From assembly GCF_963506605.1 (NCBI RefSeq), contig NC_083277.1, positions 3,658,001 to 3,722,000 on the forward strand: DNA of 64,000 bases, written 5' to 3'. A program made the position numbers. This stretch comes from Zootoca vivipara (taxonomy: Eukaryota). Position 1 is the stretch's first letter. Every line of letters begins with the position of its first letter. Shown one piece after another: positions 28,901-30,908 of this stretch.

Positions 28901-30908
28901 AGGAAAGTCAACATTAAATGTGTATATTATATTTGGGTGAATGTTAGTGTGTTATTTGTAAAAAGAAAACGAAAAATGGAATTTATTATAAAATTCCAGA
29001 GAGGGGCATCCGGTTAGGGTGCAATAGATTCTAATGGATTGCTTTGAAGTCAATTCAGCGCCAAATAACAATAACAATAACAATAATAATAATAAATGTC
29101 CTTCAGTAGCACCTTAAAGACCAACTAAGTTTTTATTTTGGTATGAGCTTTCGTGTGCATGCACAGTTCATCAGATACCCGATACCAGATATCAGGTGCT
29201 ACTGAAGGAATTTTTTAATTTTGTTTCGACTCAGACCAACACGGCTACCTACCTGTAATAATAATAATAAAGAATCGCTCCCCCCTCACCGCCCTGCGCG
29301 TATTTTGCCGGAACAAAGGCAGCAACCCTAAGCAATTATGACCCACGTCGACCGAAGGGCTGCCTCGGTGTAAGGCCGCGTCCCACGTTTGGATCCCCCA
29401 GAATGTGGAAAGACTTCCAGTGATAGTCGAACGCATGCAGAACATCAATGAATTCACACAGGGGAGAAACCATTTGAATGCATGCAGTGTGGGAAGAGGT
29501 TCACTCATAGTGCAGGCCTTAGAACACACCTGCAAACTCACACAGGGGTTAAACAATTTAAATGTATGGAGTGTGGAAAGAGTTTCCGTCAGAGTGCACA
29601 CCTCACTTCACATCAGCAAACTCACACGGGGGAGAAACCATTTAAATGTATAGAGTGTAAAAAGAGCTTCAGTAAAAAGGCCACACTTAGAAAACATCAA
29701 CAAATTCACACAGGGGAAAAGCCATTTACTTGTATGGAGTGTGGAAAGAGCTTCCGTCATAGTACTTCACTTCAAATACATCAACGGACTCACACAGGGG
29801 AGAAACCTTTTGAATGTCTAAAGTGTGGAAAGTGGTTCAGCCGAAAGACACACCTCACTAGACATCAGCGAACTCACACGGGGGAGAAACCATTTAAATG
29901 TTTGGAATGTGGAAAGAGCTTTAGCGAAAGTTGGTCCCTTAAAATTCATCATCGAAGTCACACAGGGGAGAAACCATTTAAATGTATGGAGTGTGGAAAG
30001 AGCTTTAATCAGAGTGGGGAACTTAATTTACATCATCGAACTCACACAGGGGAGAAACCATTTAAATGTGTGGAGTGTGGAAAGAGCTTCACTGATAGTG
30101 GAACATTTAGAAAACATCAACGAATTCACACAGGGGAAAAGCCATTTACTTGTACGGAGTGTGGAAAGAGTTTCCGTCATAGTACTTCACTTCGAGTACA
30201 TGAACGAACTCACACAGGGGAGAAACCATTTGAATGTCTAAAGTGTGGAAAGTGGTTCAGCCGAAAGACGCGCCTCACTTCACATCAGCGAACTCACACG
30301 GGGGAGAAACCATTTAAATGTTTGGAGTGTGGAAAGAGCTTCAGTCGACGTTACCATCAGATTGAACATCAGAGAATTCACACAGGGGAGAAACCATTTA
30401 AATGCATGCAGTGTGGGAAGAGGTTCACTCATAGTGCAGGCCTTAGAATACACCGGCAAACTCACACTGGGGTGAAAAACTTTAAATGCTTGGAGTGTGG
30501 AAAGAGCTAAAGCCGACGTGATAAACTTAGTAAACATCAGAGAACTCACACAGGAGAATCCATTTAAATGTTTGGAGTGTGGAAAGAGTTTCCGTCAGAG
30601 TGCACACCTTGCATTACATAAACATACACGGGGTGAAACACTTTAAATGCTTGGAGTGTGGAAAGAGCTTCAGTCGATGTTATAAACTTCGTGAACATCA
30701 GAGAAGTCACACGGGAGAAACCATTTTAATGTGTGGTGTATAGTAAATGTTTCATTCGATGTTCAGTCTTATATGTAGAATTATAGAATTCTAGAGTTGA
30801 CCCTGGACATAATTTGAGGGATTTTTGGATGGGGCACTGTGGAAACCCATTCACTGTATTTTGTTCACTTCTCTGGAACAAATGAACTTCAAAGGGAGAC
30901 TAGCATGA

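What the first reader, a model, noticed from the sequence alone, without database searches (positions are those of the whole stretch)
29380..29430. Inverted-duplication breakpoint falls at a hAT transposon end
Seen: the inverted copy of 8577-16187 stops at 29403, which matches base 8577, the first base of the right TSD next to the TIR of the 3825-8576 element. It is fused via a 3-bp GAA microhomology to the middle of a zinc finger (GGATCCCCCAGAA|TGTGGAAAG). Established: hAT excision and alternative transposition (Ac/Ds) break DNA at element ends and produce inversions, deletions and duplications. Inference: transposase cleavage started this rearrangement, removing unit B's promoter and the 5' end of ZNF F.
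Basis: partly seen in the sequence, partly recalled or inferred. Interest (0 to 1): 0.72.

Follow-up and report, generated by a model that had tools for sequence, protein, structure and literature searches.

The report
Duplication breakpoint at a transposon end
In a lizard zinc-finger gene cluster, one arm of an inverted duplication stops exactly where a small cut-and-paste transposon sits in the other arm, which suggests, but does not prove, that a transposase cut made the break.

Summary
Window 29300-29403 is the reverse complement of 8680-8577, and homology stops to the base at 8577. That base is the first of the right 8-bp target-site duplication of the element at 3825-8576. The join to a mid-array zinc finger shares GAA with both parents.

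The element needs redescribing. It is a 1.5-kb non-autonomous hAT-type shell with correct terminal repeats and target duplication but no transposase. A 3.2-kb BovB/RTE LINE is nested in it with its own 11-bp target duplication. The LINE's best named protein matches are from lacertid lizards, so the window is not human.

A third paralog at 39716-41243 has the left and right flanks contiguous. The arm B end is therefore a derived breakpoint.

The anatomy does not match Ac/Ds sister-chromatid transposition. No transposon end lies at the new junction, and the flank join is at the outer end of the duplication, not the centre. An end-cut or imprecise excision repaired by microhomology joining fits better.

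Chance coincidence is about 0.0005-0.003 per breakpoint before multiple looks, so it stays a serious rival. The order of events could not be tested here.

Also found: the 695 bp next to the junction are almost identical between arms.

Verdict: a real junction of a known kind, with the mechanism unproven. Interest is modest.

The parts
29401..29403 (.). Junction microhomology GAA. To its left is arm B, the reverse complement of the arm A flank. To its right is ZNF F.
   Evidence: GAA is present in the arm A flank and in 4 of 4 external paralog fingers.
29396..29403 (-). Arm B copy of the 8-bp hAT target sequence (TTCTGGGG on the minus strand), forming the last bases of arm B.
23705..29403 (-). 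Arm B: the upstream region of a minus-strand ZNF unit, colinear with arm A. The unit continues natively into its ZNF exon (ORF 22715-23797) and its 3' flank, down to about 19067.
   Evidence: The 3' flank 19411-20721 matches the 3' flank of another unit at 38237-39567.
8577..16186 (+). Arm A: the same upstream region on the plus strand. On its left it is native to the L flank across the hAT insertion. On its right it is cut in the first zinc finger by LINE3.
3825..8576 (+). Composite element. The hAT-type non-autonomous shell comprises 3825-4259 and 7513-8576, about 1.5 kb in total. A nested BovB LINE is inserted in it.
3825..3839 (+). Left terminal inverted repeat, CAGGGGTTCCCAACA.
8562..8576 (-). 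Right terminal inverted repeat, CAGTGTTTCCCAACA when read inward.
3817..3824 (+). Left target-site duplication, TTCTGGGG.
8577..8584 (+). Right target-site duplication, TTCTGGGG. Base 8577 is the last base of A/B homology.
4260..7501 (+). LINE1: a full-length BovB/RTE-type LINE with an open 1036-aa ORF (4379-7489). Its own 11-bp target duplication, TCCTCTCCTCC, lies at 4249-4259 and 7502-7512.
8171..8425 (.). Long hairpin inside the shell, with 123-nt arms, ending 151 bp from the right end of the element.
   Evidence: DNA fold gives -170 kcal/mol with z-score -28.
3331..3824 (+). L flank: sequence natively contiguous with arm A. It is absent next to arm B and has no other copy in the window except in paralog C.
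39716..41243 (+). Paralog C: L-like and R-like sequence contiguous, with no hAT. It has a 30-bp gap that begins 5 nt into the target octamer.
29404..31166 (+). ZNF F: a zinc-finger array truncated at its 5' end. It has a TGA at 29449-29451 where paralogs have CGA, a stop at 30508-30510, and later fingers in other frames.
8577..9271 (+). Near-identical tract with arm B (29403-28695): 2 substitutions in 695 bp, against 29 in the next 663 bp.
9936..12048 (+). LINE2: a BovB copy with an internal deletion and the target duplication AATCCTGCAAA. Arm B keeps the empty site at 27995-28004.
16186..19066 (-). LINE3: a BovB copy complete at its 5' end, with no target duplication. It bridges arm A's first finger to the end of unit B's 3' flank. 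Ends are good to about 2 bp.

Best explanation
Arm B is one arm of an old inverted duplication of the upstream part of a zinc-finger gene unit in a lacertid-type lizard genome. Its outer end is a derived breakpoint. It lies to the base (within the 3-bp overlap) at the place where the sister arm carries a non-autonomous Charlie-like hAT element.

The most likely history has four steps, all inferred.
1. The hAT insertion was already present on the DNA molecule that gave rise to arm B's end. That molecule was either a duplicated copy or a sister chromatid.
2. A hAT transposase supplied in trans cut at the element's right end and freed the flank, which begins with the target duplication.
3. The flank end was not rejoined to its own left flank. 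It was joined by microhomology-mediated end joining, or by a microhomology-primed template switch, to a second break inside a finger of ZNF F.
4. The element copy, the L region (possibly part of a CpG-rich promoter) and the 5' half of ZNF F were lost.

The result looks like an imprecise excision with a large one-sided deletion, or an end-cut repaired to a foreign end. It does not look like a canonical two-element alternative transposition.

Shown: the junction, the hAT-type ends and target duplication, the ancestral contiguity of L and R, the truncation and decay of ZNF F, and a later BovB insertion into the shell.

Inferred: that the element predates the breakpoint, that a transposase made the cut, and the repair route.
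For: - **Exact boundary.** Homology ends at 8577/29403, the first base of the right target duplication.
- **hAT-type element.** The target duplication is 8 of 8 and the termini match at 13 of 15 positions. Both termini start with a YARNG motif. The octamer fits the NYYYRRRN pattern, and the termini resemble hAT-N3_AC and hAT-HT3_AC in Table 1 of PMC3014272.
- **Derived breakpoint.** Paralog C has L and R contiguous. L has no other copy in the window, so arm B lost L or never received it.
- **Microhomology.** GAA is shared by both parental sequences.
- **Low per-site chance.** An exact hit on this site is expected at 0.0005-0.003.
- **Fits excision chemistry.** Passages read say Ac/Ds excision religates host flanks with small footprints.
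- **Possible second event at the same site.** Paralog C's 30-bp gap starts inside the same octamer, within 3 bp of the insertion point. This would fit an older imprecise excision there.
- **Weak hint on timing.** LINE1, nested in the shell, has 8 private substitutions in 1769 columns. The junction-proximal tract has 2 in 695. This suggests the shell was present when that tract last exchanged between arms (P about 0.05).
Against: - No hAT transposase is found anywhere in the window. Of the ORFs scanned, none has a hAT domain.
- There is no second copy of the shell or of its ends. The only 2 exact terminal-motif hits are this element's own ends (2 of 13 hits at up to 2 mismatches).
- No trace of the element remains in arm B, so its former presence there is purely inferred.
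- The age of the shell relative to the A/B split (3.3-5.4% substitutions outside the tract) could not be measured.
- The first flank bases, where hAT footprints usually show changes, are hidden by the microhomology.
- The coincidence was picked out after reading the whole window. With roughly ten or more homology ends per window (my estimate) and many windows scanned, some exact hits are expected by chance.
- No reads, other haplotypes or other species could be examined.
Confidence: 0.45

Rival explanations
1. Coincidence. The inverted duplication ended here for unrelated reasons, through ordinary end joining or template switching with 3-bp microhomology. The hAT element later inserted into arm A at the base that happens to correspond to arm B's end.
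For: - Nothing in the window dates the shell before the duplication.
- All the other datable insertions in or beside arm A are younger than the A/B split. LINE2 has an empty site in arm B. LINE3 has 17 private substitutions in 1769 columns, against at least 31 expected at the arm rate.
- The finding was selected after the fact from a window with many homology ends.
- A second inverted pair, at 46083-49912 and 56923-51608, shows such duplications recur in this cluster without any visible hAT.
Against: - The per-breakpoint chance of an exact hit is 0.0005-0.003.
- Paralog C also has an indel edge within 3 bp of the same point.
Confidence: 0.27
2. A transposon-related cause without transposase. 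A copying polymerase running along the arm toward the element stalled at the element, for example at its very stable 123-bp-stem hairpin or GC-rich end. It then switched template by microhomology into ZNF F.
For: - The shell has a hairpin of -170 kcal/mol with z-score -28.
- The join has a 3-bp microhomology.
- The 695-bp near-identical tract abuts the junction, as expected if this end was recently re-copied from the other arm.
Against: - The hairpin ends 151 bp inside the element. A stall there would carry about 150 bp of element sequence into arm B, and none is present.
- Stalling does not predict a base-exact stop at the transposon/target boundary.
Confidence: 0.1
3. Canonical Ac/Ds-type alternative transposition: sister-chromatid or reversed-ends transposition using two element ends.
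For: hAT elements are documented to make inverted duplications, deletions and inversions this way. Passages were read in bioRxiv 10.1101/2020.01.07.897926 and PMC3239180.
Against: - Those models put transposon ends with new 8-bp duplications at the novel junctions, and the flank-flank footprint at the centre of the inverted duplication. Here the novel junction has no transposon end and lies at the outer edge of the duplication.
- The arm A element keeps matching target duplications.
- No second end exists in the window.
- The centre of the duplication is occupied by a later LINE without a target duplication.
Confidence: 0.05
4. Assembly artefact: a chimeric join at 29403/29404.
For: - The region is rich in repeats and paralogs and has two N runs elsewhere in the window.
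- The 695 bp next to the join are almost identical to arm A.
- No reads were available.
Against: - Assemblers join through shared sequence, not through a 3-bp overlap.
- The arms differ by 3.3-5.4% beyond the tract and carry private insertions, so arm B is a real separate copy.
- ZNF F has decayed, with stops and frameshifts, as expected for a long-truncated gene.
Confidence: 0.07

Closest known systems
Imprecise excision or end-cleavage of cut-and-paste transposons with a one-sided flanking deletion (known for P elements and hAT elements; recalled knowledge, with host-flank religation and footprints described in the passages)
   Same: One flank is kept intact up to the target duplication. The element is gone. 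The other side is lost over a long distance. The join has short microhomology.
   Different: The partner end is an unrelated zinc-finger exon, and the event sits at the outer end of an inverted segmental duplication. That the element was ever in this arm is inferred, not seen.
Ac/Ds sister-chromatid and reversed-ends transposition (bioRxiv 10.1101/2020.01.07.897926 and PMC3239180, passages read; PMC3744419 and PMC8225341, search listing only)
   Same: The same transposon superfamily and a break at an element end. The outcome includes an inverted duplication and a deletion.
   Different: No transposon end lies at the new junction and no second element end is nearby. The flank join is at the edge of the duplication, not the centre. 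The retained element has undisturbed target duplications.
Anolis Charlie-like non-autonomous hAT families such as hAT-N3_AC and hAT-HT3N_AC (PMC3014272 Table 1, passages read)
   Same: 8-bp target duplication fitting NYYYRRRN, termini starting CAGKG followed by TTCCCAAC, a 14-16 bp terminal repeat, and a non-coding body of about 0.3-1.5 kb.
   Different: This is a different lizard family. Only the termini could be compared.
Microhomology-mediated template switching (FoSTeS/MMBIR) and staggered-break models for inverted duplications (recalled knowledge)
   Same: Inverted arms around a single-copy inverted spacer, with a short microhomology at the join.
   Different: Those models do not predict a stop exactly at a transposon/target boundary unless the template was cut there.

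Membership tests
hAT superfamily (non-autonomous member) | 8-bp target-site duplication | tested here: met
   TTCTGGGG at 3817-3824 and 8577-8584, 8 of 8. The octamer fits the NYYYRRRN pattern listed for an Anolis family.
hAT superfamily (non-autonomous member) | Short terminal inverted repeats beginning with YARNG | tested here: met
   The termini begin CAGGG and CAGTG and match at 13 of 15 positions. The YARNG hallmark is stated in PMC3014272.
hAT superfamily (non-autonomous member) | A true insertion: flanks contiguous in an unoccupied copy | tested here: met
   Paralog C joins the L and R flanks at 40411/40412, with a 30-bp gap at the site.
hAT superfamily (autonomous member) | hAT transposase (BED finger, DDE core, hAT dimerisation domain) | tested here: not met
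   The only long ORF is LINE endonuclease plus reverse transcriptase. 3 of 3 shell ORFs have no Pfam family. No hAT domain was found in any ORF scanned in the window.
hAT superfamily (non-autonomous member) | Other genomic copies and an autonomous partner with the same ends | not testable with these tools
   No other copy lies in the window. No eukaryotic genome collection was available.
RTE/BovB LINE (the nested element) | A single ORF with AP endonuclease and reverse transcriptase, about 3.2 kb, with a target duplication | tested here: met
   Exo_endo_phos and RVT_1 in one 1036-aa ORF. An 11-bp target duplication. Best named matches are Podarcis muralis (93% identity, 96% coverage) and Zootoca vivipara (99%, 64% coverage), with cattle copies at 76-80%. 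The name BovB itself rests on recall.
Ac/Ds-type sister-chromatid transposition product | Transposon end with a new 8-bp duplication at the novel outer junction | tested here: not met
   The junction joins flank directly to ZNF sequence, with no element sequence present.
Ac/Ds-type sister-chromatid transposition product | Flank-to-flank excision footprint at the centre of the inverted duplication | tested here: not met
   The flank join is at the outer end of arm B. The inner side is occupied by LINE3, which has no target duplication.
Ac/Ds-type alternative transposition | Two nearby element ends taking part | tested here: not met
   Only this element's two own ends match the terminal motif exactly (2 of 13 hits at up to 2 mismatches). 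No other shell copy exists in the window.
Imprecise excision with flanking deletion | One flank intact to the target duplication, element absent, short microhomology or filler at the join | tested here: met
Imprecise excision with flanking deletion | The element was formerly present in that very copy | not testable with these tools
   This needs orthologous loci, other haplotypes or a family age estimate.

The most novel reading that the evidence does not exclude
A natural vertebrate case in which a trans-mobilised hAT miniature element, cut at one end, seeded a gene-truncating rearrangement in a fast-evolving zinc-finger cluster. The same hAT end would have stayed a recombination hot spot afterwards. 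Two observations point that way: the recent 695-bp arm-to-arm conversion tract that starts exactly at the element end, and an indel at the same octamer in a third paralog. If general, hAT ends would be a measurable driver of zinc-finger gene turnover in squamates.
Probability: 0.12. Interest if true: 0.6.

Novelty: new member of a known kind. Interest (0 to 1): 0.35.

Why it matters
Cut-and-paste transposons are known from maize, rice and flies to break chromosomes at their ends. Base-resolved natural examples in vertebrate genomes are few (my recollection, not searched). If the transposase reading is right, this locus shows a small non-coding hAT element reshaping a zinc-finger gene cluster, killing one gene (ZNF F) and decapitating the upstream region of another.

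The idea can be tested genome-wide: do segmental-duplication ends in lizard genomes pile up at hAT termini? As a single locus without read, population or cross-species support, it remains an anecdote.

Tried and rejected
- **Simple inversion between the hAT end and ZNF F.** Rejected. It predicts the reverse complement of ZNF F's 5' half next to the element. Instead, plus-strand arm A follows natively.
- **Arm A and ZNF F as two halves of one gene split by an insertion.** Not supported. ZNF F's odd finger matches the arrays at 48052 and 54183, not unit B's array. ZNF F is only 81-89% identical to unit B's exon.
- **The ZNF fragment at 32500-33175 as the missing 5' half of ZNF F.** Rejected. It ends with a complete finger and a normal tail.
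- **Search for a reciprocal junction in the window.** No other copy of the L flank was found outside paralog C. No other shell copy or exact terminal motif was found.
- **LINE3 as part of the original duplication event.** Rejected on age. It has 17 private substitutions in 1769 columns, against at least 31 expected.
- **Purifying selection as the cause of the near-identical 695-bp tract.** Rejected. A-C divergence is the same inside (31 of 295) and outside (54 of 545) the tract.
- **Looking for KRAB or SCAN exons or a promoter in arm A.** Of the 80 plus-strand ORFs of 28 aa or more, 64 were scanned and the other 16. None gave a credible domain. The only hit was a weak PBP1_TM match at E = 0.042.
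- **A cryptic pseudo-end in ZNF F.** I compared the finger sequence left of the join in the paralogs with the terminal repeat by eye. There is a short resemblance, but it is out of register with the cut, so I dropped it.
- **Cross-species or read-level checks.** Not possible. The only contig collection open holds bacteria and archaea. The annotated DNA collections hold phages, plasmids and E. coli.
- **Other points.** The N runs were left as they are.
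Full report
**1. What is at the coordinates**

Window 29300-29403 is the reverse complement of 8680-8577, with 2 mismatches in 104 bases. In a 184-column three-way alignment, arms A and B also differ at only 2 columns.

Beyond that point the two sequences have nothing in common. The reverse strand of arm A runs into CAGTGTTTCCCAACAGG..., the end of the element at 3825-8576. Arm B runs into TGTGGAAAGACTTCC..., which is zinc-finger coding sequence.

The three bases GAA at 29401-29403 belong to both parents. 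They are the last bases of the arm A flank. They are also the glutamate codon before the second cysteine in 4 of 4 external paralog fingers. Two internal fingers of the same array have GAG there.

**2. What the element is**

The element is flanked by a perfect 8-bp direct repeat, TTCTGGGG, at 3817-3824 and 8577-8584. Its termini match at 13 of 15 positions.

Its only long ORF (4379-7489, 1036 aa) carries AP-endonuclease and reverse-transcriptase domains, so it is a LINE and not a transposase. This LINE occupies 4260-7501 and has its own 11-bp target duplication, TCCTCTCCTCC. Three more copies lie in the window:
- 9936-12048
- 16186-19066, on the minus strand
- 58734-59386, a 3' part only

The first three copies differ from each other by 1.2-1.7%. 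The 3' fragment is about 5% away.

The LINE's best named protein matches are Podarcis muralis (93% identity over 96% of the query) and Zootoca vivipara (99% over 64%), with cattle copies at 76-80%. In all, 885 proteins scored E ≤ 1e-30 among 7262 candidates, and 120 were listed. I therefore take the window for a lacertid-type lizard and the LINE for a BovB/RTE element. The family name is recalled.

What remains of the 'hAT' is a shell of about 1.5 kb (3825-4259 plus 7513-8576). Its properties are:
- no Pfam family in 3 of 3 shell ORFs
- a 123-nt-arm hairpin at 8171-8425, with a DNA fold of -170 kcal/mol and z-score -28
- no other copy in the window
- only 2 exact hits to its terminal motif, both its own ends, among 13 hits at up to 2 mismatches (2.47 expected)

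The shell's ends and target do fit hAT. Passages and Table 1 of PMC3014272 state that Anolis hAT families have 8-bp duplications and YARNG termini. They list hAT-N3_AC (CAGTGGTTCCCAACCT, target NYYYRRRN) and hAT-HT3_AC (CAGTGRTTCCCAAA). Our termini and octamer conform. The 'hAT' call is therefore right for a non-autonomous member. An autonomous hAT was tested for and not found.

**3. Is the end of arm B a true breakpoint?**

A third paralog, C (39716-41243), carries the L flank (matching window 3331-3821) directly joined to the R flank (matching 8613 onward). It lacks about 30 bp at the site. C is 89-92% identical to A, whereas A and B are 92-95.8% identical. L-R contiguity is therefore older than the A/B split.

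L has no other copy in the window. Arm B thus lost L or never received it, and its end is derived.

The full colinear map is:

| Arm A | Arm B | Identity |
|---|---|---|
| 8577-9895 | 29403-28072 | 95.8% |
| 12052-12465 | 28004-27640 | 92-95% |
| 12467-13674 | 26723-25504 | 94.7% |
| 14836-16123 | 25006-23748 | 92% |
| 16128-16186 | 23763-23705 | 100% |

Unit B continues natively into its ZNF exon (ORF 22715-23797, minus strand) and its 3' flank. Arm A is cut in its first finger by LINE3. LINE3 has no target duplication and adjoins the far end of unit B's 3' flank.

LINE3 has 17 private substitutions in 1769 columns. At least 31 would be expected if it were as old as the A/B split (P ≤ 0.005). 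It is therefore a later event that overwrote the inner side of the duplication.

The present layout is: L, then hAT with its nested LINE, then arm A, then LINE3, then unit B inverted, then ZNF F.

**4. The partner: ZNF F**

The join falls between the two cysteines of a finger. Its peculiar sequence, [18 protein letters not shown], recurs at 48052 (+) and 54183 (-), well inside those arrays. ZNF F has therefore lost several fingers and everything upstream.

ZNF F has also decayed:
- a TGA at 29449-29451, where both paralogs have CGA
- a stop at 30508-30510
- later fingers in two other frames

It is a dead gene fragment.

'Unit B's promoter' is not demonstrable. A CpG-rich patch straddles the L and R flanks. 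No KRAB, SCAN or other coding exon was found in arm A. Of its 80 plus-strand ORFs of 28 aa or more, 64 were scanned and the other 16, with no credible match.

**5. Chance**

Four positions (8577-8580) are allowed by the overlap. The chance that a random end hits this one insertion site is 0.0005 over 7.6-8.4 kb and 0.003 over the first block of 1.36 kb. Microhomology of 3 bp or more is expected at about 5% of random joins (the formula is recalled).

Against this, the coincidence was selected after reading a window with many homology ends, in a scan of many windows. Chance is unlikely for this junction, but it is not negligible.

**6. Mechanism**

Passages read in bioRxiv 10.1101/2020.01.07.897926 and PMC3239180 describe sister-chromatid transposition. 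The host sequences flanking the excised ends are religated with a small footprint, and this footprint lies at the centre of the inverted duplication. The excised ends insert elsewhere, so the novel outer junctions carry transposon ends.

The anatomy here is the opposite:
- the flank join is at the outer edge of the duplication
- it carries no transposon sequence
- the retained element in arm A has undisturbed matching duplications
- no second element end is nearby

A simple inversion is excluded, because arm A follows the element in native orientation.

The anatomy does fit a cut at the right end of an element copy that is now lost. The freed flank would then have been joined through GAA to a foreign break in ZNF F. 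This could have happened at the time of the duplication, by run-off at a cut template followed by a microhomology switch. It could also have happened later, as an imprecise excision with a long one-sided deletion. That hAT cleavage leaves hairpinned flank ends is recalled knowledge, not tested here.

Both versions need the hAT insertion to predate the breakpoint, and I could not test that. The only hint is weak. LINE1, which inserted into the shell, has 8 private substitutions in 1769 columns. The junction-proximal tract has 2 in 695 (P about 0.05).

**7. A new observation bearing on the locus**

Substitutions between the arms are not evenly spread. There are 2, at 8641 and 8642, in the 695 bp next to the junction. 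There are 29 in the following 663 bp. Fisher's exact test gives P = 1e-7, though I chose the boundary after seeing the data.

A-C divergence is the same inside the tract (31 of 295) and outside it (54 of 545). This is not selective constraint. It is a recent arm-to-arm conversion or re-copying that ends exactly at the element end and junction.

Two readings fit. One is renewed breakage at the element end. The other is ordinary conversion between inverted arms that stops where homology stops. The tract does not decide between them.

Paralog C's 30-bp gap begins 5 nt into the same octamer. It could be an old excision scar or an unrelated indel.

**8. What stayed unchecked**

The following were not available: reads, other haplotypes, other lizard genomes, and any repeat library. 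The one open contig collection holds bacteria and archaea. The annotated DNA collections hold phages, plasmids and E. coli.

The N runs (45883-46049 and 56969-57131) were left alone. Supplements of the papers were not opened.

**9. Verdict**

- **Observation:** confirmed.
- **Interpretation:** partly supported. The link to a hAT-type end is real and unlikely to be chance. The element is a non-autonomous shell carrying a LINE. The rearrangement is not a canonical alternative-transposition product. The order of events is unproven.
- **Confidence:** 0.45 for a transposase-made end repaired by microhomology joining, 0.27 for coincidence, and the remainder spread over the smaller rivals.
- **Novelty:** a new member of a known kind.
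- **Interest:** 0.35.

Noticed in passing
8577-9271 and 29403-28695: The 695 bp of the two arms next to the junction differ by only 2 substitutions, against 29 in the next 663 bp. Divergence from paralog C is the same inside and outside the tract. This indicates a recent arm-to-arm gene conversion or re-copying tract that ends at the hAT end.
   Followed up: yes
16186-19066: A BovB LINE copy, complete at its 5' end, has no target-site duplication. Its 3' end cuts unit A's ZNF exon in the first finger. Its 5' end abuts the far end of unit B's 3' flank. It probably reflects a LINE insertion with a large target deletion that removed unit A's finger array.
   Followed up: partly
4260-7501 (ORF 4379-7489): A full-length BovB/RTE LINE with an uninterrupted 1036-aa endonuclease plus reverse-transcriptase ORF. 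Three of its window copies differ by 1.2-1.7%, so the family looks recently active. Clean target duplications are present for two copies.
   Followed up: partly
46083-49912 and 56923-51608: A second, independent inverted pair of ZNF units in convergent orientation. The finger exons are 92.8% identical and the spacer is about 1.7 kb. The two N runs (45883-46049 and 56969-57131) lie at mirrored places just outside the arms and were left untouched.
   Followed up: partly
40405-40415 (paralog C): Relative to the reconstructed empty site of arm A, paralog C lacks 30 bp, starting 5 nt into the same TTCTGGGG octamer that the hAT targeted. This could be an old excision scar or an unrelated indel.
   Followed up: partly
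8171-8425: A near-perfect hairpin with 123-nt arms inside the hAT shell (DNA fold -170 kcal/mol, z-score -28). Its role is unknown, and it could act as a barrier to replication.
   Followed up: partly
9483-9882, 15065-15454, 24394-24777, 27813-28477, 40888-41442, 46089-46251, 56746-56917: A dispersed repeat of about 0.4-0.6 kb, 80-87% identical between copies, whose end carries CAGGGTTTCCCCAG. It is present in seven places and was not classified.
   Followed up: no
6-561 and 35165-34677: An inverted match of 82-95% identity between the far left of the window and a GC-rich stretch downstream of ZNF F. It could be an older outer layer of inverted structure or just a repeat.
   Followed up: no
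29449-29451: An in-frame TGA in the first partial finger of ZNF F, where both close paralog fingers have CGA. This is a CpG-type nonsense change. Together with a stop at 30508-30510 and frame changes later in the array, it marks ZNF F as a pseudogene.
   Followed up: yes
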